Shown: one piece after another, positions 3,835 through 55,778 of the stretch
How the letters are laid out: each line of letters starts with the position of its first letter
Position numbering within the stretch: position 1 is the stretch's first letter
NCBI GenBank assembly: GCA_001831095.1
Contig: MIDP01000013.1
Coordinates: forward strand, 2,364-66,363
DNA: 64,000 nucleotides
From: Verrucomicrobia bacterium GWF2_51_19
GTDB taxonomy: Bacteria > Verrucomicrobiota > Verrucomicrobiia > Opitutales > UBA12508
Direction: 5' to 3'
Position numbers and translations under genes: made by a program
Notes under the pieces: generated by a model
What the model was told of the DNA's origin: nothing
Databases searched by the model: none
Seen by the model: only the letters and a program-made list of their open reading frames with translations

Positions 3835-3958
3835 AAAGACAGATGCAAAATGGCTCTATAGCAAGGCCCGAGAAGCGAGGGCGACAGGAGCGTACGTTTG
3901 TACGTGACTTAGCCCGAACGACGAGAACGACGCTAGAGACCATTTTGCATCTGTCTTT
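3835..3958 (+). repeat. Family A structured intergenic element, copy A1
   Basis: A perfect 19-bp outer inverted repeat (aaagacagatgcaaaatgg / ccattttgcatctgtcttt) encloses the conserved core ctatagcaaggcccgag..gcgacaggagcgtacgtttgtacgtgacttagcccgaacgacgagaac..gctagag. The element supplies the last 8 codons and the stop of mrdA. Confidence 0.9.
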
Positions 3959-5834
3959 GCAATAGCCTTGCAAACTCCTTAAAAATCGCCCTGGCGACGG
4001 GGCCAGCAGTTGTTCCGCCGTAGAAGAGGTCGCGGTCGTCGCGCTCCTCAATTGCAACAGCAACCGCGATTTGTGGGTCTTCGATCGGTGCAAAGCCGAT
4101 GAACCACGCGATGTGCAAAAAGCGCTTGACGCCCGCCACGCGGATTTGCGCCGTGCCTGTCTTTGCGGCTATACGGAATCCTTGAACGGAGACTGATTTT
4201 GCTGTGCCTTCCGTCGAGGCCATTTCCATACCTTCGAGAAGCGCCTTCATGTGTTCGGGACGCAGGCCAATAGCCTCTCCGCCGTGTTTAGGTTGTTTGT
4301 GGGTGTCGTGGACGAGCGTTGGTTGCGTACGCGTCTCTCCTCGAGCCAATGAGGCAACAAAGCAGGCCATTTGCAGCGGAGTTACCCGCGTAAACCCCTG
4401 TCCCTGTACCATATTGGCTGTATCACCACCCGTCCAAGAGCCCAGATCGCGGCGCTTTTTCCATTGCTTGTCGGGAATGAGACTGCTTGGCGTCTCTGGC
4501 AACTCGATGTGCGTGACCTGATTTAGGCCAAAACGCCTGGCCTCGTCGGCAAGCATCTCGTGGCCACACTTCAGCGCGTGTTCGATGAAAAATGGATTGC
4601 AACTGAGCGAAATCGCGTGGCGGAAGTCGAGTTGCCCGTGTCCCCAAAGGTTGTTGCAGTGAAACTGGCGGTTGCCAACCATTATCGAGCCAACACAGTT
4701 GTGGACGTCATGCGGGTCGAGGTAACCGTTGCGAAGCATCGCGATCGATGCAATCACCTTAAACGGCGACCCCGGCGGATAGAGCCCCTGCGTCGCACGA
4801 TTCACCCAGGCGCCCCTTTCGGTAATCGCGTCGTAGGTAGCTTGCGGAAGATAGGGCGTGAAGTCGTTGAGGTCGAAGTCTGGCTTGCTCGCCAACACAA
4901 GGACCTCGCCCGTTCGCACGTCGAGCGCCACCGCCGCACCACGATTGTCGCCCAGGGCCATTTCAGCCACTTCTTGGAGGTCGGCATCGAGGCTGCAATA
5001 GAAATCTTTGCCCTGCTCCGGGTGCTTTTTCAACAGCTGTTCGTACTTGTAACCAGACGGGTCGACCAGGCAGACTTCGTACCCGCTGAGGCCCTGCAAA
5101 TGGCTGTCAAAGCGCGCCTCCAGGCCCATCTTGCCCGATTTCCCCTTGATGCTAAAAGTGGTCAAATTCTCGCCCGGCACGCTGTCAGCCGTTTCCGACG
5201 ACGACACGACGTACCCCAAGGTGTGCGCCGCCAGCGAGTCGTAGGGGTAGACGCGGACACTGTCAACGTACACCTGAATTGGGTAACGCACAGGCAATTG
5301 CTCGGTCAGGATCGCATACTCCTGCGGCGTCAAGTCCTCGATCAGCGTCATCGGCAACAACATGTGTTGATAAAAGTGACGCTCCAGCTTTTTGGGATCA
5401 ATCTGGACGTTTTTTTGAAGCAGTGCGTTGATCTTGTCTAAATACTTTTGCAAAACCGCTGCCCGAGCAACACGTTTAATGTCATCACGGTCGACGCGCT
5501 CGTTCTTTTCGCGCTGCTCGCGGACAAGCTGGATGTACCTCTCGGCAAACTCCTTGCGCAACTCCTCCAAATACGCCACAACGCAGAAACGTGGACGATT
5601 GCCCACCAACAATATCCCTTTTCGATCGTAAATATTGCCACGCGTCCCAGGTGTTATCAACCGCCGCATGCTCTGCTGCTGCTCCTTTTCCTCGTAAATC
5701 GACGCCTGTATAAGCTGCCTCCACGCGAGTCCAAAAAACAGCGTAGCAAACGCCACCCCACTCAATAAGTAAAAAAAACGTATGCGCGGCGTGAAACTCC
5801 GGTGAGACTCGAAGGGCTTTTCATCTGCTTTCAT
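3933..5834 (-). CDS. mrdA: Penicillin-binding protein 2 (elongasome transpeptidase)
   Basis: N-terminal TM anchor, PBP dimerisation domain and transpeptidase domain (SPFK, KTGTA motifs). I chose the start at 5834 (MKADEK) because it forms an ATGA overlap with the mreD stop; the ORF-track start is 5858. Confidence 0.9.
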   Translation of the reverse strand: MKADEKPFESHRSFTPRIRFFYLLSGVAFATLFFGLAWRQLIQASIYEEKEQQQSMRRLITPGTRGNIYDRKGILLVGNRPRFCVVAYLEELRKEFAERYIQLVREQREKNERVDRDDIKRVARAAVLQKYLDKINALLQKNVQIDPKKLERHFYQHMLLPMTLIEDLTPQEYAILTEQLPVRYPIQVYVDSVRVYPYDSLAAHTLGYVVSSSETADSVPGENLTTFSIKGKSGKMGLEARFDSHLQGLSGYEVCLVDPSGYKYEQLLKKHPEQGKDFYCSLDADLQEVAEMALGDNRGAAVALDVRTGEVLVLASKPDFDLNDFTPYLPQATYDAITERGAWVNRATQGLYPPGSPFKVIASIAMLRNGYLDPHDVHNCVGSIMVGNRQFHCNNLWGHGQLDFRHAISLSCNPFFIEHALKCGHEMLADEARRFGLNQVTHIELPETPSSLIPDKQWKKRRDLGSWTGGDTANMVQGQGFTRVTPLQMACFVASLARGETRTQPTLVHDTHKQPKHGGEAIGLRPEHMKALLEGMEMASTEGTAKSVSVQGFRIAAKTGTAQIRVAGVKRFLHIAWFIGFAPIEDPQIAVAVAIEERDDRDLFYGGTTAGPVARAIFKEFARLLQRQMQNGL

Positions 5835-6331
5835 TGGCTCGCCTTTTTCAAAAACCAACTCTGCAATTCAAAAAACCAAAGCGCAACAGGAAATATTGTC
5901 AATGTTGAAAAAATCAAGTCGCCAACAGTCCTCGTCCAATACCCACATGCATGCCAATGCGGCTGCCCCAACAAGAAAATCTGGGCAATCCCCAGTAACG
6001 CGTTCAAAACAACCGCTAAACAGGCCGCTTGAAAGAAGTTACACTTTTGGAAAACATTTCTGAAAGCCGCTAATAACCCGTACCCAACCGCAAATAATAC
6101 CAACGATTGCCCCGAGGTCACCGGCAGTAACGCGTCAAAAAAATACCCCGTCAAAGCCATGCACAATAACCCTTGAAATACATTTAAATATAACCCCGAA
6201 TAAACCACCAACGCACCCCCCCAATATAAATACACAGCTAACCCACTCAACCCACTGTTCACCACTCCGTTCAGTCCTATCAGAACCCCGTTACTCACCA
6301 AAAATATAAAAAATCTTAAGTCTCTATGCAT
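5831..6331 (-). CDS. mreD: Rod-shape-determining protein MreD-like
   Basis: 166-aa polytopic membrane protein immediately upstream of mrdA and overlapping it. The call rests on size, topology and synteny only. Confidence 0.6.
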   Translation of the reverse strand: MHRDLRFFIFLVSNGVLIGLNGVVNSGLSGLAVYLYWGGALVVYSGLYLNVFQGLLCMALTGYFFDALLPVTSGQSLVLFAVGYGLLAAFRNVFQKCNFFQAACLAVVLNALLGIAQIFLLGQPHWHACGYWTRTVGDLIFSTLTIFPVALWFFELQSWFLKKASQ

Positions 6332-6345
6332 GTGAACGTTGTACT

Positions 6346-6444
6346 CGGGAAACCCTTTTTATAGAATAAAAAGTGTTTCCCGAACCCTTCCCAAAAACAC
6401 TTTTTTAGCGAAACATAAAAATACTTCGTATTTTTTTATTTCGC
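6346..6444 (-). repeat. Family B two-hairpin element, copy B1
   Basis: Read on the minus strand, hairpin 2 (6408-6444, gcgaaa..tttcgc type) comes first, then hairpin 1 (6346-6382, gggaaac..gtttccc type). The mreD ATG follows 15 nt later. Confidence 0.85.
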
Positions 6445-6480: not shown

Positions 6481-6604
6481 AAGGCCGCTTCAAGATGCGC
6501 CTATAGCCAGGCCCGAGGAGTGAGGGCGACAGGAGCCTACTTAAGGTAGGTGACTTAGCCCGATCGACGAGAACGCCGCTAGAGGCGCATCTTGAAGCGG
6601 CCTT
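6481..6604 (+). repeat. Family A element, copy A2
   Basis: Perfect 20-bp outer inverted repeat aaggccgcttcaagatgcgc / gcgcatcttgaagcggcctt. The core is the same as A1, but the central hairpin is cctac-ttaag-gtagg. Confidence 0.9.
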
Positions 6605-6850
6605 TTGCAGCGTTAAAAATAGATGCAAAAATGCGGCTTGGCGCGAGCACGATTCGGCCGTAGCGGCATGGCGATCCATCCGGCTTCTCCAATTTTTTTG
6701 CGAAATATAAAAATGCATGCATTTTTGTGTTTCGCTTTAAAAGTTTTTTGGAGAGGGGGTCGGGGAGAGACTTTTTTTCAAAAAAGTCTTTCCCCGTGGC
6801 CAGTCGGCGGAGCGAGAAACGCATTTTGGCGCTATTTTCAACGCTGTCTT
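6605..6850 (+). repeat. Family T2 element, copy T2-1, interrupted by a family B copy
   Basis: The left part (6605-6692, ..aaaaatagatgcaaaaatgcggcttggcgcgagcacgattcggccgtagcg..) and right part (6796-6850, ..ggccagtcggcggagcgagaaacgcattttggcgctattttcaacgctgtctt) align with the uninterrupted copies. B2 lies between them. The right end overlaps the PP2C stop codon. Confidence 0.8.
6700..6795 (+). repeat. Family B element, copy B2 (nested inside T2-1)
   Basis: Hairpin 2 at 6700-6735 (gcgaaatataaaaatgcatgcatttttgtgtttcgc) and hairpin 1 at 6762-6795 (ggggagagactttttttcaaaaaagtctttcccc). Confidence 0.85.
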
Positions 6851-8488: not shown

Positions 8489-8550
8489 GTATATCGCCGA
8501 TCTCGCCCTCACCGTCAATCAAAATACAGCTCCCCAGCTCCTCTTTAGTT

Positions 8551-8680
8551 AAAGACTGATGCAAAATAGATGCAAAAATGTGGCTTTGCGCGAGTATGAC
8601 CCGGCGTAGCGTACATAGACGTACGTGAGCAAGTCAACGGAGCGCGAAACGCGTTTTGGCGCTATTTTGACTCTGTCTTT
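8551..8680 (+). repeat. Family T2 element, copy T2-2 (complete)
   Basis: aaagactgatgcaaaatag..atgcaaaaatgtggctttgcgcgag..ccggcgtagcgtacatagacgtacgtgagc..ggagcgcgaaacgcgttttggcgctattttgactctgtcttt. Confidence 0.85.
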
Positions 8681-8698
8681 AGGTAGTGTTTTTGATAA

Positions 8699-12470: not shown

Positions 12471-15093
<2,623 letters not shown>

Positions 15094-15095
<2 letters not shown>

Positions 15096-15222
15096 AGAAC
15101 GATAAAAATGGCACCCAGCTTCGTTTCGCGCTCCGCCGACTGCCTCACGTACCTCTATGTACGCTACGGCAGATCGTGCTCGCGCAAAGCCAAACCTGTG
15201 CATCCATTTTTTATCGTTCTTC
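15094..15222 (-). repeat. Family T2 element, copy T2-3 (complete, inverted)
   Basis: The outer arms gaagaacgataaaaatgg / ccattttttatcgttcttc pair with a single-nt bulge. The inner stem is ctgcc..ggcag around gtagcgtac-ataga-ggtacgtga. The left end overlaps the gyrB TGA. Confidence 0.85.
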
Positions 15223-15269
15223 AGCTCCAATGATGACCAGTATACCAATACAAATAATCAATGAATTTT

Positions 15270-15368
15270 GCGAAATAGAAAAATACGCAGTATTTTTATG
15301 TTTCGCATAAAAAAGTGTTTTTAGGAAGGGTCTGGGAAACCTTTTTTATTCTATAAAAAGGGTTTCCC
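15270..15368 (+). repeat. Family B element, copy B4
   Basis: Hairpin 2 at 15270-15306 and hairpin 1 at 15334-15368; the gyrA ATG follows 16 nt later. Confidence 0.85.
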
Positions 15369-15384
15369 TGTTCAAAATTTTCAT

Positions 15385-22105: not shown

Positions 22106-24247
22106 TTAATCGCCAAAAAAGCCCTTAAATAAGCCAAAAAAGCCCTTAAATAAGCCACCCGCTAGATTACCTGGAGCTGCAAGTACTGACGTGATCGTCG
22201 CGGTGTTTTTAACAACGCCATTGACGTTTTCAAGCAAGTCTTTGACTCGTTTTTGATCTTCCTCACCGAGGACGTTTAATACGCCTTGGTTATTGGCTTT
22301 TTCGGTGATGGCCTCTATATTTTTAACGGACGTTTGGAGATCATCGAGAAGGCTCGCCCCCTTTTCGCCGCCCAATAAGCCAATGACACCGTTGTCTTTG
22401 ATAAAATTAACCAATTTTTCAGCTATCTGGATCGAGCTTGAAACCTTTGCGCGCAACTGATTCCAGCCATCTTGAGTCGTATCGACAGTCTTTTTTAAGA
22501 TTTCAGTTACTACTGTTGTGATGTTATTTATATTTTCAGTGACAGATTGGACAAAAAGTTTTTGGGCTTCTTCTGATTTTACGACTTCAAACAGATCTTT
22601 GTCTTTAAATTTTTCTATAATGCTTTTGACGGCTTGAGTACGAAATTGTACGATTTTCCCTTTATCGCCCTCCAACTCTATATTTCGTTCGCATTGTATG
22701 GCTAGCTGATTGTAGAAGATATCGAGTGGTGTGAATTCTTCATTCCCTAATAAAAACAATTCTGGTTTCTTTTCGAGAAATAATTTAAGACTGTCTAAAA
22801 AGACATTACACTCAGTCTCATCTGTAATCCAAGCAGCTTGATGCATGCAGGCGTTTAGAAAAGTCTTTCCGATAGTCTTTCCGGAATCCATCTGTGTATC
22901 TAGGACAGACCAATCGAGCTTTTGCAAAAAACTGCGGAGTTTGTGGAGTGTGCCTTTTTGCAGGAAAGGCAAGATTTTATTAGAATCTGTGGCGCAGAGT
23001 AGTTGTGGATTTTTTTCAATGAGTTTTCCGATAATGCGATCGCCTTCCTCGCCTGTGCTGACCAATAAAGTGGCTAGATGCAGAAGTGTTTTTTCGTTGT
23101 CGATTACTTTCCCATTCTCGTCGACTTTCTCATCGAAACGAGTGTTAATGCCCTCAGGCAAGCGTTCGATAAGCGTGTCGAGAATGGCCATGTGTGCATC
23201 CGTCGCAAAAGCAAACTTCATCCAAAATGCGGCATCCTCCTCATTGGTTATTTTCTCTGGAAGTATGGCCTGAAGCGTTTCCACGTTGCTCGACGCCAAT
23301 GCTATATCGACAAAGGGAGCGATGTCTTTAGGCATTACATTTTTATTAACCAACATGGCTTTAACGAGGTCAACGTTTCCAGTGCTGATGGCCACTGCCA
23401 TGGCACTGTCGCCTGGAAGTTGAAGGCCAACATCCGCGTTTTTATCGAGTAACAACAGCGCCACTTTGGTATTGCAAAGGGCCGTAGCGGTGTAGAGTGG
23501 CGTAAAGCCATCCTTGGATGTCGCATGGATATTGACTCCTTTTGCGAGCAAACAATTGAATAACGCTTTAGTCTTGTCGTTTTCTGTGTCGTTTTCTGGA
23601 AGGCAACAAAGGAGGTGAATAGGCGCAAAGCCTTTCTCGTCTTGTTCTGACAAGATATCCTTGTCCAATGCATCTAGAAATGACACATTACCAGCTTCTA
23701 TAGCCTTGTGGGCGAGCGTTTTACGTTCTGAATCGTTGGCGTTTTCAACGATGGCATTGACTATCTTAGGATCTATGCTGGTGTTCTTCAAACACGCGTT
23801 GATAGCGCTCTCGAAAGAGAATACCTTTTGTTGTTCCGGTGTCATCGAACCACGTTTTTCTAAAACCTTTTTAGCAAGTTCCGAATCATTCTCTTTTATA
23901 GCGAAGTCGAGAAAGGCGGAATTTACATAGCCTGCATCCAGGGCTTTTTCGATGAACTTTTTGGAAAGGTTGTGTTGACTGATCGCGCCCAAAATGCCTT
24001 TTTCGATCACGTCGCCCGACCGTACTTTACGCCGGCTGATGGGCGTCATCGCTGCATCCGAAGTGACGATGGCCGACCAGCCTTTCGCGCGTGCGTAGAG
24101 GTTAAATATGGCATTGGCCATCCAATTTCCCTTATCTCGCACGATGACGATGGATCGCTTGTTGTCTAAAAAGCAGACCTTTTCTTTGGCCAACAAATTT
24201 TCCTGAATGGTACCAAAATTCTCAGGGGTTTGGTCGAGTTTTAACAT
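22106..24247 (-). CDS. Ankyrin-repeat protein (713 aa) with a helical C-terminal region and a duplicated GLFKGFF tail
   Basis: Ankyrin consensus segments (GFAPIHLLC..LLAKGVNIHATSKDGFTPLYTATA..LLLDKNADV..GDSAMAVAISTGNVDLVKAML). AAGGAG Shine-Dalgarno 7 nt before the ATG, which lies 12 nt after the rpoN stop. Visibly more A/T-rich than the flanking genes. Confidence 0.85.
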   Translation of the reverse strand: MLKLDQTPENFGTIQENLLAKEKVCFLDNKRSIVIVRDKGNWMANAIFNLYARAKGWSAIVTSDAAMTPISRRKVRSGDVIEKGILGAISQHNLSKKFIEKALDAGYVNSAFLDFAIKENDSELAKKVLEKRGSMTPEQQKVFSFESAINACLKNTSIDPKIVNAIVENANDSERKTLAHKAIEAGNVSFLDALDKDILSEQDEKGFAPIHLLCCLPENDTENDKTKALFNCLLAKGVNIHATSKDGFTPLYTATALCNTKVALLLLDKNADVGLQLPGDSAMAVAISTGNVDLVKAMLVNKNVMPKDIAPFVDIALASSNVETLQAILPEKITNEEDAAFWMKFAFATDAHMAILDTLIERLPEGINTRFDEKVDENGKVIDNEKTLLHLATLLVSTGEEGDRIIGKLIEKNPQLLCATDSNKILPFLQKGTLHKLRSFLQKLDWSVLDTQMDSGKTIGKTFLNACMHQAAWITDETECNVFLDSLKLFLEKKPELFLLGNEEFTPLDIFYNQLAIQCERNIELEGDKGKIVQFRTQAVKSIIEKFKDKDLFEVVKSEEAQKLFVQSVTENINNITTVVTEILKKTVDTTQDGWNQLRAKVSSSIQIAEKLVNFIKDNGVIGLLGGEKGASLLDDLQTSVKNIEAITEKANNQGVLNVLGEEDQKRVKDLLENVNGVVKNTATITSVLAAPGNLAGGLFKGFFGLFKGFFGD
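22112..22153 (-). repeat. Perfect 21-bp tandem duplication encoding LFKGFFG x2 at the C-terminus of the ankyrin protein
   Basis: gccaaaaaagcccttaaataa x2, read directly. Confidence 0.95.
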
Positions 24248-25718: not shown

Positions 25719-25842
25719 AAAGACCATTGAAAAATGCCTTATAGCGGCGTTCTCGTCGTTCGGGCTAAGTCACCTACCTTAAGTAGGCTCCTGTCGCCCT
25801 CGCTCCTCGGGCCTTGCTATAAGCCATTTTTCAACGGTCTTT
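25719..25842 (-). repeat. Family A element, copy A3 (inverted)
   Basis: The outer arms aaagaccattgaaaaatgcc / gccatttttcaacggtcttt pair with two mismatches. The core is the reverse complement of A1/A2 with the cctac..gtagg central hairpin. The element begins 5 nt from the rpoN ATG. Confidence 0.9.
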
Positions 25843-26843: not shown

Positions 26844-26871
26844 AAAGACGGCACTGAAAATGGCCTCTAGC
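26844..26871 (-). repeat. Family A end-fragment
   Basis: aaagacggcactgaaaatggcctctagc matches one terminal arm plus the first core bases. It lies 6 nt upstream of the kinase ATG. Confidence 0.6.
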
Positions 26872-53600: not shown

Positions 53601-54437
53601 ATGTTTGTCATGAAAAAGAGGCTAATCAGTACAGTGTGTTTGTGGTTGATCGTGTTGGGCGTGATTTTATTTTTGGGACCAACCGCAGCTGTATTTTTGT
53701 TGGCAGTGTTGTCGGCTTTGACACAAAATGAGCTGTATAAGCTGCAGAAGCGCATGGGATATAAGCCATTACGTCGATTGGGACTGACGTTGGGATTTTT
53801 GCTTCCCCTGATCGTTTGGTTCTCAGACAACCCACACGCCGGCAGCGATTTCTTTGTTTTCAGCCTGATTTTGATAAGCCTGTCGATCTTGTTTCAAGAC
53901 ATTCGACACGGCATGGAATCCTTGCTCATTCCGACCTTGTTTGGCTTTGTCTACATCCCGTTCATGTTGCAATATTACGTCCAAATCCTGAAGGACTGGG
54001 ATACGCTCGGTAACACCACTGGCGGGCTCTTTCTCATCGTTTGGCTGATCGCGGTGGCCAAGTTTACCGACGTCGGTGGCCTCCTAGTCGGCAATGCCAT
54101 TGGACGACATAAGTTGGCTCCTCACATAAGCCCCAAAAAGACGTGGGAGGGTGTTGTCGGAGGAACCGCCCTGGCTACGGCTGTCGGATTGGCCTTAGCA
54201 GTCGTCTTTCGCCCATGGATGCCACCTTCCTTTACCCTCGCAAAGTCGGTAATCATCGCAATACCCATATCAGCGGCGTCCATTTTATCTGACCTCATCG
54301 AATCGGCCATCAAACGCTTTTCAGGCCAAAAAGACTCAGGCCACGTCATTCCGGGCATCGGTGGCGCCTTTGACCTCGTCGACAGCCTTGTTTTGACTGC
54401 TCCATTGGGTTATCTTCTCTTCAAGTACTTCATTTAA
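53601..54437 (+). CDS. cdsA: Phosphatidate cytidylyltransferase
   Basis: Polytopic membrane protein with a CdsA-signature-like segment SAIKRFSGQKDSGHVIPGIGGAFDLVDS (non-canonical at several positions). Confidence 0.85.
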   Translation: MFVMKKRLISTVCLWLIVLGVILFLGPTAAVFLLAVLSALTQNELYKLQKRMGYKPLRRLGLTLGFLLPLIVWFSDNPHAGSDFFVFSLILISLSILFQDIRHGMESLLIPTLFGFVYIPFMLQYYVQILKDWDTLGNTTGGLFLIVWLIAVAKFTDVGGLLVGNAIGRHKLAPHISPKKTWEGVVGGTALATAVGLALAVVFRPWMPPSFTLAKSVIIAIPISAASILSDLIESAIKRFSGQKDSGHVIPGIGGAFDLVDSLVLTAPLGYLLFKYFI

Positions 54438-54554
54438 GGCCTGGGAAAGGGCCTATAGCGGCGTTCTCGGCGTTCGGGCTAAGTCACGTACCACCCGTAC
54501 GGCTCCTGTCACCCTCACGCCTCGGGCCTTGCTATAGACCCTTTCCCAGGCCTT
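54436..54554 (-). repeat. Family A element, copy A4 (inverted)
   Basis: The outer stem aaggcctgggaaagggcctatagc / gctatagaccctttcccaggcctt forms 24 bp with one mismatch. The central hairpin is cgtac-gggtg-gtacg. The left end overlaps the cdsA TAA. Confidence 0.9.
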
Positions 54555-54627
54555 AAAGGCTCGAAGAAAAATGGCAGAATCGTGCGCAGCGCGAAACGCA
54601 TTTTGGCGCCATTTTACAACGGTCTTT
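54555..54627 (+). repeat. Internally deleted T2 element
   Basis: aaaggctcgaagaaaaatgg..cagaatcgtgcgcagcgcgaaacgcattttggcgccattttacaacggtcttt. The right half matches T2-1 and T2-2. Confidence 0.6.
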
Positions 54628-55440: not shown

Positions 55441-55654
55441 GCCGCGGCATGGCGCACAGATCTTTGTATATCAATAACTTACGAACTGCAAAGACCGTTG
55501 GAAAATGGCCGGCAAGGCCGTTTTTTCAAAACTAAGTGATTAATGCGAAAAGACCGTTGAAAAATGGATGCAAAAATGTGGCTTTGCGCGAGTACGATCT
55601 GCCGTAGCGTACATTTGTGCACAGGTCTTAGTCTATCAATAACTTACAAATGAA
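55441..55654 (+). repeat. Cluster of truncated repeat pieces
   Basis: Contents: a T2 central fragment; a solo terminal arm at 55490; a truncated T2-4 at 55549-55629; and a duplicated tatcaataacttac spacer at 55469-55483 and 55634-55648. The terminal arm aaagaccgttg(g/a)aaaatgg occurs in direct orientation at 55490, 55549 and 55655. The unit cacagRtctt..tatcaataacttacRaa..aaagaccgttgRaaaatgg occurs twice. Confidence 0.75.
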
Positions 55655-55778
55655 AAAGACCGTTGAAAAATGGCTCTATAGCAAGGCCCGAGGAGCGAGG
55701 GCGACAGGAGCGTACGTTGGTACGTGACTTAGCCCGAACGACGAGAACGCCGCTAGAGGACATTTTTCAACGGTCTTT
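55655..55778 (+). repeat. Family A element, copy A5
   Basis: The outer arms aaagaccgttgaaaaatgg / acatttttcaacggtcttt pair at 18 of 19 positions. The core is nearly identical to A1. Confidence 0.9.

What the first reader, a model, noticed from the sequence alone, without database searches (positions are those of the whole stretch)
3835..3958. Family A: ~120-nt intergenic element with a conserved core and co-varying outer and central stems
Full copies lie at 3835-3958(+), 6481-6604(+), 25719-25842(-), 54436-54554(-) and 55655-55778(+). A degenerate copy lies at 58167-58283, and end-fragments at 26844-26871 and 60467-60500. All share the core CTATAGCAAGGCCCGAGGAGCGAGGGCGACAGGAGC-[hairpin]-GTGACTTAGCCCGAACGACGAGAACGCCGCTAGAG. 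The 17-20 bp outer stem exists in three unrelated sequence versions: AAAGACAGATGCAAAATGG, AAGGCCGCTTCAAGATGCGC and AAGGCCTGGGAAAGGGC. Each version is perfectly or almost perfectly complementary to its own partner arm. A1 and A5 differ at three stem positions, and all three are compensated on the other arm. The central hairpin switches between CGTAC..GTACG and CCTAC..GTAGG, which is also compensated. The two long internal arms are not complementary to each other and look like degenerate direct repeats (GCCCGA..CGAG..CG). The first arm can form GCCC-9 nt-GGGC. The only two informative stem mismatches (A3, A4) are C.A on one strand and G.U on the strand reading CUAUAGCAAGG. This pattern suggests selection for a folded nucleic acid rather than simple decay of a palindrome. 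I do not recognise it as a known RNA or repeat family.
Basis: partly seen in the sequence, partly recalled or inferred. Interest (0 to 1): 0.8.

Follow-up and report, generated by a model that had tools for sequence, protein, structure and literature searches.

The report
ERIC-like hairpin repeats in a Verrucomicrobium
The ~124-nt element is a real, abundant, hairpin-forming intergenic repeat with true compensatory changes, but it is a divergent member of the long-known ERIC/IRU family of miniature mobile palindromes, here found far outside the enterobacteria, in an uncultured groundwater Verrucomicrobium.

Summary
I found 64 near-full copies in 401 kb of the same genome (Verrucomicrobia bacterium GWF2_51_19, Rifle groundwater). 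The covariation is real: 213 doubly changed cells against 75±9 in shuffles, and two central pairs switch A-T/G-C and G-C/C-G without exception. The "non-complementary" inner arms fit a continuous rod in which G-C rungs alternate with invariant tandem G·A/A·G mismatches. The family is not unknown. A covariance model built only from these copies finds canonical E. coli ERIC copies full length (E 5e-7 and 1.4e-6). It also finds ~130-nt rods in two other Verrucomicrobia, in alphaproteobacterial GTA or prophage loci, and in phage contigs. All share the apex GGAGC(G/T)TAC-loop-GTA(C/A)GTGA with a G·U kept in 32 of 32 non-Family-A members. Best reading: a MITE-like foldback element of the ERIC superfamily. 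It is selected to fold as one strand, sits against start or stop codons, and probably acts on flanking mRNAs when co-transcribed. Its mobilising enzyme is unknown, and RNA versus ssDNA is unresolved. It is a new member of a known kind. The cross-phylum reach, the density (about one per 4 kb) and the conserved apex are the interesting parts.

The parts
3835..3958 (+). Family A copy A1 (the finding). Outer stem 3835-3853 / 3940-3958. Inner box CTCTATAGC 3854-3862 / GCTAGAG 3932-3938. Apical hairpin C3891-GTAC-GTTT-GTAC-G3904, flanked by GGAG / TGAC. The PBP2 ORF (3933..5858, minus strand) reads through the right arm and stops at the TAG inside GCTAGAG.
   Evidence: 145.9 bits
6481..6604 (+). Family A copy A2. 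It has a private outer arm, AAGGCCGCTTCAAGATGCGC, forming a 27-nt arm pair that is 96% complementary. Central stem is the CCTAC/GTAGG variant.
   Evidence: 138.3 bits
25719..25842 (-). Family A copy A3. Its 3' end lies 5 nt upstream of the rpoN start codon and is in sense orientation to rpoN.
   Evidence: 139.5 bits
54433..54557 (-). Family A copy A4. Its private outer arm TTTAAGGCCTGGGAAAGGG overlaps the cdsA stop codon.
   Evidence: 117.6 bits
55655..55778 (+). Family A copy A5, identical to the consensus. It is preceded by the 5' 'head' motif (about 55630-55654) and by fragments of a sister family.
   Evidence: 147.4 bits
58164..58287 (+). Degenerate Family A copy. Its 3' end lies 2 nt from an ATG.
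   Evidence: 46.1 bits
26844..26871 (+). Truncated copy: a left arm plus the CTCTAGC box only.
60467..60500 (-). Truncated copy: only the element's 5' part (left arm AAGACGGGCTCCAAATGG + CCTATAGCAAGG) is kept. The window + strand reads CCTTGCTATAGG + CCATTTGGAGCCCGTCTT.
8548..8684 (+). Sister family B. It has the same type of outer arm (AAGACTGATGCAAAATAG) and the same apex (GCGTAC-ATAGAC-GTACGTGAG) but different inner arms.
   Evidence: (30 bits)
15090..15225 (-). Sister family B copy between gyrB and gyrA.
   Evidence: (29.6 bits)
57950..58145 (.). A family B-type element that carries a nested insertion (134 nt between its arms).
55491..55630 (+). Arm-only and family B fragments, lying in tandem upstream of A5 in the tpiA-downstream spacer.

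Best explanation
Family A is a lineage-specific subfamily of the ERIC/IRU superfamily. These are non-coding, ~125-130-nt miniature foldback (MITE-like) elements.

Shown here:
- It is highly repeated in one genome (64 near-full Family A copies and about 100 superfamily members per 401 kb).
- It occurs as truncated, internally deleted, chimeric and nested copies.
- It has a patchy distribution among relatives.
- It shares a length, a rod-shaped fold and three sequence modules with canonical E. coli ERIC: a left AAGGC loop, the apex GGAGC(G/T)TAC-loop-GTA(C/A)GTGA, and a right (C/G)AACGC loop.
- Its stems are kept by compensated substitutions, while specific non-Watson-Crick positions are kept as such (G.U, tandem G.A/A.G, an A.G in the arm).

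Inferred:
- The element is selected to fold as a single strand, the strand reading CTATAGCAAGG.
- The invariant apex is the part recognised by whatever propagates it. The outer stem only has to pair, probably to bring the two ends together.
- Because copies sit 0-25 nt from start codons or against stop codons, they are co-transcribed with flanking genes. They then act as RNA hairpins on mRNA processing, stability or translation, as reported for Yersinia ERICs.

Not known: the mobilising enzyme, and whether the selected fold is RNA or single-stranded DNA.
For: Repetition and degradation products:
- 64 near-full copies.
- R1 gives 112 hits in 387 kb of the same genome.
- The central motif occurs 102 times per 401 kb.
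- Deletion, chimeric and nested copies are seen.
- The arm motif occurs 181 times per 401 kb and is shared with sister families.

Link to ERIC:
- R1, trained only on Family A, hits two E. coli K-12 ERIC copies full length. L273 (iscX-pepB) scores 31.8 bits, E 4.9e-7.
- L126 was fetched for another purpose. Its only hit in 10 kb scores 32 bits, E 1.4e-6, and carries the ERIC1R/ERIC2 primer sites.
- The intermediate L168 scores 36.6 bits with R1 and matches all 5426 E. coli genomes by blastn, with a median of 10 places per genome.
- The three modules are shared in alignment A3.
- A sequence-only nhmmer profile of Family A reaches L047 (1.8e-5), L133 (3.4e-4), L111 (1.8e-3) and the L126 ERIC copy (4.9e-3).

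Structure:
- Covariation within the genome and across 31 distinct members (32 hits, two identical) from other taxa. In the latter, 87.8% of cells pair against 53.3% in shuffles, 41 of 42 pairs show double changes, and the covariation score is 0.786 against 0.184.
- Rod fold: -56.8 kcal/mol, z = -7.0. RNAalifold gives the same rod.
- G.A/A.G and G.U are invariant.

Mobility-type distribution:
- Among 80 Opitutales-related loci, only L047 and L111 carry it.
- It is present after the capsid stop codon in 7 GTA or prophage loci and undetected in the other capsid relatives, including L213, L216 and L226 (79-83% identity), which lie between carriers of 86-100% and 72-73%.

Position:
- Sense 28 against antisense 12 between co-directional genes. 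All 8 copies between divergent genes are sense to the adjacent gene. The 3' end abuts a start or stop codon.

Literature:
- ERIC is described as a ~127-bp MITE with TIRs, A-G mispairs in the stem, co-transcription, and an orientation-dependent RNase E effect (PMC2229807, PMC3184786, PMC10969869).
Against: - No target-site duplication is evident. TA..TA flanks occur in only 11 of 64 copies, and AA..TT in 16 of 64.
- No filled-versus-empty site pair exists for this genome, because the two assemblies are the same strain.
- No transposase is linked to the element. tblastn with the E. coli RAYT found nothing in 401 kb, and the neighbours in phage loci are unrelated genes.
- Plain pairwise similarity of the Family A consensus to a single E. 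coli ERIC copy is not significant (457 of 2000 shuffles reach it). Homology therefore rests on the structure-aware model, shared modules and intermediates. Convergence on a common protein-binding apex is not formally excluded.
- The ends are more variable than the centre (77-79% against 92% column identity). This is the reverse of ordinary TIR-defined MITEs.
- After stop codons, the minus strand rather than the folding strand lies in the upstream gene's mRNA. The RNA-level role is therefore not simple.
- There are no expression data.
Confidence: 0.75

Rival explanations
1. A family of genes for a stable, trans-acting structured small RNA of about 120 nt.
For: - Strong covariation.
- An invariant G.U and G.A motifs on one strand, and G.T more frequent than A.C.
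- Sense bias of 28:12.
- The apex is conserved across phyla.
Against: - About 100 copies per 400 kb, including truncated, chimeric and nested ones.
- 20 of 56 copies are convergent with or antisense to neighbouring genes.
- No conserved promoter or terminator was identified. The start codon of the next gene follows within 0-25 nt.
- No Rfam family matches.
- It belongs to a family already described as mobile MITE-like DNA (PMC2229807).
Confidence: 0.08
2. A REPIN-like element: a doublet of REP sequences moved as single-stranded DNA by a REP-associated tyrosine transposase (RAYT), or by another HUH/Y1 enzyme that binds the apical hairpin.
For: - Structure rather than end sequence is conserved, and one strand is favoured.
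- One central variant reads CTAC-loop-GTAG, like tail-to-tail GTAG REP dimers. Opitutus terrae, in the same order-level group, is rich in GTAG REPs, and REP dimers nested in long palindromes are known (PMC3733652).
- A TTAC lies 8-9 nt 5' of the hairpin foot in many copies.
Against: - The major apex is GTAC, not GTAG.
- The halves are not themselves REP-like stem-loops.
- No RAYT was found by tblastn in 401 kb. This is a weak test, since the genome is incomplete and the query distant.
- Orientation is mixed within one replichore-sized window with constant GC skew.
- ERICs have never been tied to a RAYT (own knowledge).
Confidence: 0.12
3. A passive DNA palindrome whose arms stay complementary through intrastrand gene conversion or mismatch repair of extruded hairpins, with no selection on folding.
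For: Copies with private arms are perfect 26-40-bp palindromes found nowhere else.
Against: - Specific mismatches persist across copies and phyla. These are A19.G126 in the arm, A31.G114 (36/58), the tandem G.A pairs and the G.U. Conversion would erase them.
- The inner arms are asymmetric and purine-rich on one strand only.
Confidence: 0.03
4. Locally evolved gene-end hairpins (terminators or mRNA stabilisers) that merely resemble each other.
For: They lie against stop and start codons. Many have A-tracts and T-tracts at the stem foot.
Against: The core is 92% identical at 64 unrelated loci. The same apex occurs in different phyla. Nested and chimeric copies exist.
Confidence: 0.02

Closest known systems
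ERIC / IRU / RU-1 (enterobacterial repetitive intergenic consensus, ~127-bp MITE-like imperfect palindrome)
   Same: - Similar length (124-131 nt against about 127).
- A single rod-like hairpin with purine-purine mispairs.
- The same three modules in the same order: AAGGC, then GGAGC(G/T)TAC-loop-GTA(C/A)GTGAC, then CAACGC.
- Intergenic, lying against stop or start codons, in both orientations, non-coding.
- Copy number differs widely between lineages.
- A model of Family A detects E. coli ERIC copies.
   Different: - The host is a Verrucomicrobium. Reviews place ERIC in Enterobacteriaceae and Vibrionaceae only (PMC10969869).
- The apex has GCGTAC rather than GCTTAC.
- The arm carries an A-tract (AAAATGG/CCATTTT) and the inner arms are built of CGAG-type tandem G.A steps.
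- A conserved 5' 'head' is present.
- Several sister families share the arms.
- Density is about one per 4 kb. For comparison, 30 copies are reported in E. coli K-12 and 711 in Photorhabdus.
- A TA duplication was not demonstrable.
REP / REPIN elements with RAYT transposases
   Same: Abundant intergenic palindromes in which structure is conserved more than sequence. Dimers form long hairpins, and mosaic tandem arrays with conserved linkers occur, as in BIMEs.
   Different: There is no GTAG tag on most copies. The unit is a 124-nt rod rather than two 20-40-bp stem-loops. No RAYT was found.
Correia/NEMIS, RUP and other TIR-defined bacterial MITEs
   Same: Size, intergenic location, co-transcription, and folding into long RNA hairpins that RNases can cut (PMC10969869, PMC2229807).
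   Different: In those elements the terminal inverted repeats are the conserved part and match a known IS. Here the ends are hypervariable, the centre is conserved, and no parent IS is known.
Integron attC sites
   Same: A 60-140-nt imperfect palindrome recognised as a folded single strand, with conserved unpaired bases and a variable but complementary stem. It abuts the stop of one gene and the start of the next.
   Different: The copies are dispersed among housekeeping genes and are not in a cassette array. There are no R/L boxes (RYYYAAC/GTTRRRY) and no integrase nearby.
CIR (Caulobacter CcrM-associated intergenic repeats)
   Same: Intergenic ~110-nt repeats of Alphaproteobacteria, which also carry ERIC-like rods.
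   Different: CIRs fold into two arms joined by a linker and carry GANTC sites (PMC2229807). The rods here are single hairpins without that motif.

Membership tests
ERIC/IRU superfamily | Unit length of about 127 bp | tested here: met
   Family A measures 124 nt from arm to arm, and R1 has 131 model positions. The E. coli copies align full length at 116-130 nt.
ERIC/IRU superfamily | Conserved central inverted repeat (the core targeted by the ERIC1R and ERIC2 primers: CCAGGAGCTTACAT / AAGTAAGTGACTGGGG) | tested here: met
   Family A reads CAGGAGCGTACGT / GGTACGTGACT. The apex columns are 90-100% conserved across 15 members, including E. coli. Primer sequences were confirmed. The G.U and tandem G.A are shared.
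ERIC/IRU superfamily | Detectable homology to bona fide E. coli ERIC copies | tested here: met
   R1 scores 31.8 and 32 bits (E 4.9e-7 and 1.4e-6) on two K-12 copies, one of them unselected. A chain through L168 links the two. Caveat: plain pairwise alignment is not significant, and nhmmer gives only 4.9e-3.
ERIC/IRU superfamily | Imperfect palindrome that folds into one long hairpin with non-Watson-Crick mispairs | tested here: met
   the description is in PMC2229807 (Table 1 footnote).
ERIC/IRU superfamily | Insertion duplicates a TA dinucleotide, giving TA at both termini | tested here: inconclusive
   TA..TA flanks occur in 11 of 64 copies and AA..TT in 16 of 64. No empty site is available for this genome.
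ERIC/IRU superfamily | Intergenic, close to ORFs, with orientation linked to position relative to stop codons | tested here: met
   All 56 scorable copies are intergenic or overlap an ORF end. One particular end abuts the start or stop codon. The Yersinia orientation rule itself is cited from memory of De Gregorio 2005, which was not held.
ERIC/IRU superfamily | Host range of Enterobacteriaceae and Vibrionaceae (as stated in reviews) | tested here: not met
   The host is Verrucomicrobia bacterium GWF2_51_19. This is a matter of distribution, not anatomy, and is the novel part.
Classical MITE | Conserved terminal inverted repeats matching a parent IS, plus a direct target-site duplication | tested here: not met
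   The ends are the most variable part. No IS with these ends occurs in 401 kb. No consistent TSD is seen.
REPIN / RAYT system | GTAG-tagged REP stem-loops in an inverted doublet, plus a RAYT gene flanked by REPs | tested here: not met
   The apex is GTAC in 42 of 58 copies and GTAG in 16 of 58. tblastn with the E. coli RAYT gave no hit below E 0.39. The genome is incomplete, so absence of a RAYT is not proven.
Any Rfam family | Score at or above the gathering threshold | tested here: not met
   There are 0 hits in the window. The best sub-threshold hit is RNAI at 13 bits, E 7.7. Only a tRNA is found in 13 related loci.
Integron attC | R''/L''-L'/R' boxes, a cassette array and an integrase | tested here: not met
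   The flanking genes are PBP2, rpoN, cdsA, tpiA and gyrA/B. There is no array, and no integrase among the genes annotated at the rpoN/gyrA locus and the element-flanking ORFs. The boxes were judged by eye only.

The most novel reading that the evidence does not exclude
ERIC is not an enterobacterial curiosity. On this reading it is one branch of a cross-phylum superfamily of ~130-nt rod elements, found here in Gammaproteobacteria, Alphaproteobacteria and their GTAs, Verrucomicrobia and phage contigs. The superfamily would be defined by an invariant apical hairpin (G.U plus tandem G.A under a CGUAC stem) and by hypervariable, self-complementary outer stems. It would be propagated through recognition of the folded single strand at its apex by a still unidentified, widely distributed enzyme. 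That mechanism would differ from end-recognising DDE transposition. Phages and GTAs would carry it between phyla.
Probability: 0.3. Interest if true: 0.75.

Novelty: new member of a known kind. Interest (0 to 1): 0.5.

Why it matters
ERIC sequences have been used for 30 years as PCR fingerprinting targets, yet how they move and what they do is still unsettled. No transposase has been tied to them. This study found a very dense, well-preserved ERIC-like population in a Verrucomicrobium. Relatives occur in two other Verrucomicrobia, in Rhizobiales and Sphingomonadales replicons, in GTA capsid loci and in phage contigs.

That makes the open question a comparative one. The invariant parts are the apex with its G.U and tandem G.A and the two internal loops. 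The free parts are the outer stem sequence and the loop. Together they define what any mobilising or binding factor must recognise. The patchy distribution allows phylogenetic profiling for the partner gene.

For genome annotation, about 3% of this genome, and the 5' or 3' ends of many of its transcripts, are made of these rods.

Tried and rejected
- **Exact-pattern scan of GTDB representative genomes with the 3' core:** 0 hits. The species is not among the representatives, so this said nothing about relatives.
- **Metagenome scan:** hits came from only two datasets, which proved to be the same strain. No empty-site comparison was possible.
- **Regex search for arms and cores in 80 relatives:** it found nothing, but this was misleading. 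The covariance model later found divergent members in two of them.
- **Idea that the core inserts into pre-existing terminator or REP-like hairpins:** no arm-only hairpins were found. Short-spaced arm pairs are deletion derivatives or chimeras, and the A-tract arm module is itself conserved in the alphaproteobacterial members. The idea is not excluded for the copies with private arms.
- **RAYT/REPIN idea:** no RAYT was found.
- **Integron attC, retron, k-turn and ribozyme ideas:** these were considered from the anatomy and dropped. There is no array and no RT. The G.A pairs have no 3-nt bulge next to them. There are no Rfam hits.
- **Closest TPI homologue P0002:** it belongs to an unrelated organism.
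- **blastn of Family A against phage and plasmid collections:** no match.
- **blastn of the GTA-type member against INPHARED phages:** no match.
- **Search for a constant neighbouring gene in viral loci:** none. Neighbours include terminase, sheath, capsid, NrdD and integrase genes.
- **Pairwise Smith-Waterman of the consensus against one ERIC copy:** not significant.
- **De Gregorio 2005 (PMC1291288):** the paper could not be read.
Full report
**1. The observation**

The element at 3835-3958 reads AAAGACAGATGCAAAATGG-CTCTATAGCAAGGCCCGAGAAGCGAGGGCGACAGGAGC-GTACGTTTGTAC-GTGACTTAGCCCGAACGACGAGAACGACGCTAGAGA-CCATTTTGCATCTGTCTTT. Each of the two core motifs matches five times within 3 mismatches, at the stated places and strands, against 0 in shuffles. 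The arms are 93-100% complementary within each copy for which an ungapped arm pair was reported (A1, A2, A3, A5). A covariance model made later recovers the five copies at 117-147 bits and the degenerate copy (58164-58287) at 46 bits. The two 'end fragments' are truncated ends.

**2. The organism and the size of the family**

- The window is a scaffold from the Rifle groundwater metagenomes.
- Its TPI is identical to that of 'Verrucomicrobia bacterium GWF2_51_19'.
- Its GyrA is at most 72% identical to Opitutales and Puniceicoccales MAGs.
- A degenerate pattern scan of JGI metagenomes returned 42 loci from only two datasets. These are the same strain at 99.7-100% identity.
- In 401 kb of non-redundant sequence from this genome there are 64 near-full Family A copies, about one per 6 kb.
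- The same sequence holds 181 arm-like sites and 102 copies of the central motif.
- R1 gives 112 hits in 387 kb. About 62 are Family A, and the rest are sister families with the same arm type and apex but other inner arms. An example is family B at 8548-8684 and 15090-15225.
- Internally deleted, chimeric (A/B) and nested copies are common.

**3. Structure and covariation within the genome**

On the 64-copy alignment A2:
- 86% of cells pair, against 76% in shuffles.
- 213 cells changed on both sides, against 74.7±8.7 in shuffles (0 of 500 shuffles reach the observed value).
- Slid registers give 33-47% paired.

The highest mutual-information column pairs are the palindromic partners (counts on the 58 intact copies). 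Columns 60/86 are A-T 40 / G-C 18 and columns 67/80 are G-C 42 / C-G 16, both without exception. Columns 60/86 are not linked to the variable columns lying between them. That argues for pairing and against simple subfamily linkage.

The plus-strand RNA fold is -56.8 kcal/mol with z = -7.0. The rod has G-C rungs separated by four tandem G.A/A.G steps:
- 5'-CGAGGAGCGAG / 3'-GAGCAGCAAGC

The G.A positions are conserved in 49-58 of 58 copies. The few rung changes are mostly double (C-G to T-A twice; G-C to T-A, A-T and C-G). RNAalifold finds the same rod independently. The minus strand cannot form it; its mismatches would be C.T, T.C and A.C. A G.T at the base of the apical stem is 57/58. Elsewhere G.T outnumbers A.C by 52:35.

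Specific mismatches persist, namely A19.G126 and A31.G114 (36/58). This rules out blind homogenisation of the arms.

The ends are more variable than the centre. Column identity is 77-79% for the outer stems against 92% for the core, and there are 28 different 6-mers at arm columns 13-18. Copies with private arms use sequences found nowhere else in the data and form 26-40-bp perfect palindromes.

**4. Position**

Of 56 scorable copies:

| Context | Copies |
|---|---|
| Between co-directional genes, sense | 28 |
| Between co-directional genes, antisense | 12 |
| Between divergent genes (all sense to the adjacent gene) | 8 |
| Between convergent genes | 8 |

The sense excess among co-directional contexts has a binomial p of about 0.02 by my arithmetic.

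The 3' end of the element (on the strand reading CTATAGCAAGG) almost always abuts a gene boundary. This is either a start codon 0-25 nt downstream or the stop codon of a converging gene. Start-codon examples include rpoN, ychF-, murC- and recN-like starts. In A1 the PBP2 frame ends at a TAG inside the element. The 5' side carries a conserved ~20-nt 'head' (TTAACAACTTACGAAAGG or ..CAACGAC..) and often a further element 43-47 nt away.

**5. Relatives elsewhere: the turning point**

- Rfam gives nothing.
- Regex searches found nothing in 1.4 Mb from 80 Opitutales relatives.
- The covariance model R1, built only from Family A with the rod structure, found full-length ~130-nt rods in two of them. 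These are Verrucomicrobia bacterium GWC2_42_7 (L047, 4 hits) and an Opitutales MAG (L111, 6-7 hits).
- Those rods have different arms but the same apex, GAGCGTAC-N4-6-GTACGTGA.
- Scanning IMG/VR for that apex gave 80 loci.
- R1 found full-length rods at 35 of its 36 matches at E ≤ 1; 19 of them are at E ≤ 0.01 (18 listed, plus L146 and L176 when re-searched).
- No Rfam family matches these either.
- Their neighbours are unrelated genes: terminase, tail sheath, major capsid, NrdD and integrase. In 7 of 9 cases the rod begins at or within a few bases of a stop codon.

One group lies right after the major capsid gene of small GTA-like clusters. Using the capsid protein as an independent probe, the rod is present in 7 loci (capsid identity 72-100%). 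It went undetected in the other capsid relatives, including L213, L216 and L226 at 79-83% identity, which fall between carriers of 86-100% and 72-73%. Between close relatives a mid-stem segment is replaced by an unrelated but still complementary one (L211 against L212). blastn places this group in Rhizobiales and Sphingomonadales replicons.

**6. Identification as ERIC**

One viral member, L168, reads GAATCCCCGGGAGCGTACATTCAGTACGTGACTGGGGTGAGCGAGCGCAGCCAACGC. [quoted passage not shown]
- The ERIC primers are ATGTAAGCTCCTGGGGATTCAC and AAGTAAGTGACTGGGGTGAGCG (confirmed).
- L168 matches all 5426 complete E. coli genomes, with a median of 10 places each.
- R1 aligns full length to the K-12 ERIC between iscX and pepB (31.8 bits, E 4.9e-7).
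- R1 also hits an ERIC in a 10-kb K-12 stretch that I had fetched for another reason. It is the only hit there (32 bits, E 1.4e-6) and carries CCAGGAGCTTACATAAGTAAGTGACTGGGGTGA.
- In both E. coli cases the same end abuts a gene boundary: the iscX stop, and the ykfJ start 7 nt away.
- A 15-member alignment across taxa shows the three shared modules in the same order: AAGGC, then GGAGC(G/T)TAC-loop-GTA(C/A)GTGA, then (C/G)AACGC.

On 31 distinct members (32 hits, two identical) from other taxa, none used to train the model:
- 87.8% of cells pair, against 53.3% in shuffles.
- 41 of 42 pairs show double changes.
- The covariation score is 0.786 against 0.184.
- The G.U is 32/32 and the tandem G.A is 30-31 of 32.
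- G.T against A.C is 74:37.

Caveats:
- That alignment is fitted to the model.
- The viral loci were chosen by the apex motif.
- Plain pairwise alignment of the Family A consensus to one ERIC copy is not significant.
- A sequence-only profile reaches the E. coli copy only at E 4.9e-3.
- Homology therefore rests on the structure-aware model, shared modules and intermediates.

**7. What is known about ERIC**

Reviews describe ERIC/IRU/RU-1 as follows (PMC2229807, PMC3184786, PMC10969869):
- It is a ~127-bp MITE with TIRs, TA at the termini and A-G mispairs in its stem.
- It is co-transcribed with neighbouring genes.
- It has an orientation-dependent effect on upstream mRNA through an RNase E site.
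- Copy numbers are 30 (E. coli K-12), 150 (Salmonella LT2) and 711 (Photorhabdus).
- Its range is stated as Enterobacteriaceae and Vibrionaceae.

From memory of De Gregorio et al. 2005 (not held), insertion duplicates TA, and copies next to stop codons prefer one orientation. The second point matches what is seen here. I could not show the first: TA..TA flanks occur in 11 of 64 copies.

**8. How it most likely works**

Shown:
- It is a repeated, non-coding foldback element of the ERIC superfamily.
- Its pairing is maintained by compensated change.
- Defined non-canonical positions are conserved on one strand.
- It has a patchy, mobile-type distribution.
- It is placed tightly against start and stop codons.

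Inferred:
- (a) The single-stranded rod is the selected form.
- (b) The invariant apex and internal loops are the recognition surface for the factor that propagates or binds it. The outer stem only needs to pair.
- (c) When transcribed with neighbours, the rod acts on mRNA processing, stability or initiation.

Unresolved:
- Whether the selected fold is RNA or ssDNA. After stop codons the non-folding strand lies in the upstream mRNA.
- The origin of new private arm pairs.
- The mobilising enzyme. No RAYT was found in 401 kb, and there is no constant neighbour.

**9. Verdict**

It is a new member of a known kind. Three things go beyond the textbook picture:
- It occurs in Verrucomicrobia, Alphaproteobacteria with their GTAs, and phage contigs.
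- Its density is about one superfamily copy per 4 kb, roughly 3% of the sequence.
- Conservation is 'centre conserved, ends free but paired', with an invariant G.U and G.A apex.

Noticed in passing
window 8548-8684, 15090-15225, 57950-58145, 55550-55630, 54560-54626: Sister family B. It has the same arm type and the same apex (GCGTAC..GTACGTGAG) but different inner arms (GGCTTTGCGCGAGCACGATCTGCCGTA / GGCAGTCGGCGGAGCGCGAAACGC). Some copies carry nested inserts or are chimeric with Family A.
   Followed up: partly
window 6345-6383, 6761-6796, 15320-15370; also inside L027 9893-10139 and L032 6645-6890: A family of small hairpins, (C)GGGGAGAGACTTTTTT-CAAAAAAGTCTTTCCCCG. With it is an AT-rich palindrome, TTTGCGAAATATAAAAATGCATGCATTTTTGTGTTTCGC (window 6693-6742). 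Both are found nested within family B elements.
   Followed up: no
L009 5400-6300 (copies in L022, L038, L030, L024, L043, L010): An ORF-less repeat of about 0.9 kb, 85-92% identical between copies. It is bounded by direct repeats of ATGAGGTCTTACAAGCT and lies next to an arm and a Family A-like copy.
   Followed up: partly
upstream of the left arm of most Family A copies, e.g. window 55630-55654; L006, L032, L035: A conserved asymmetric ~20-nt 5' 'head' (TTAACAACTTACGAAAGG or ..ACCAACGAC..). It also forms the 43-47-nt linker between tandem elements. In L028 9915-10047 it is mirrored on the 3' side.
   Followed up: partly
L024 7003-7197 and L029 14416-14640: Local tandem duplications (97 nt and 87 nt) of the 5' flank plus left arm (plus the first ~20 nt of the core in L029), next to a full copy.
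   Followed up: no
L010 2864-2994, L043 4701-4945, L032 3518-3649: A composite about 250 nt long: a Family A copy with another ERIC-like rod (apex GCGCAT..ATGCGTGAC) inserted into its right inner arm. It is present at three different loci, so the composite itself has spread.
   Followed up: no
window ~23690-23960 (L001 11755-11856 against L002 11755-12026): A 170-bp length difference between two assemblies of the same strain, inside the ankyrin-repeat gene downstream of rpoN.
   Followed up: no
L209-L244 (alphaproteobacterial GTA-like capsid loci): The spacer after the major capsid stop codon is a hotspot for several unrelated palindromic repeats (e.g. CCCCTCACCCG...CTCTCCC..GGGAGAGG), in addition to the ERIC-like rod.
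   Followed up: no
L126 7346-7461 (NC_000913.3 about 253345-253460) and L273 1500-1629: The E. coli K-12 ERIC copies found by the model carry no repeat annotation in the RefSeq records shown.
   Followed up: no
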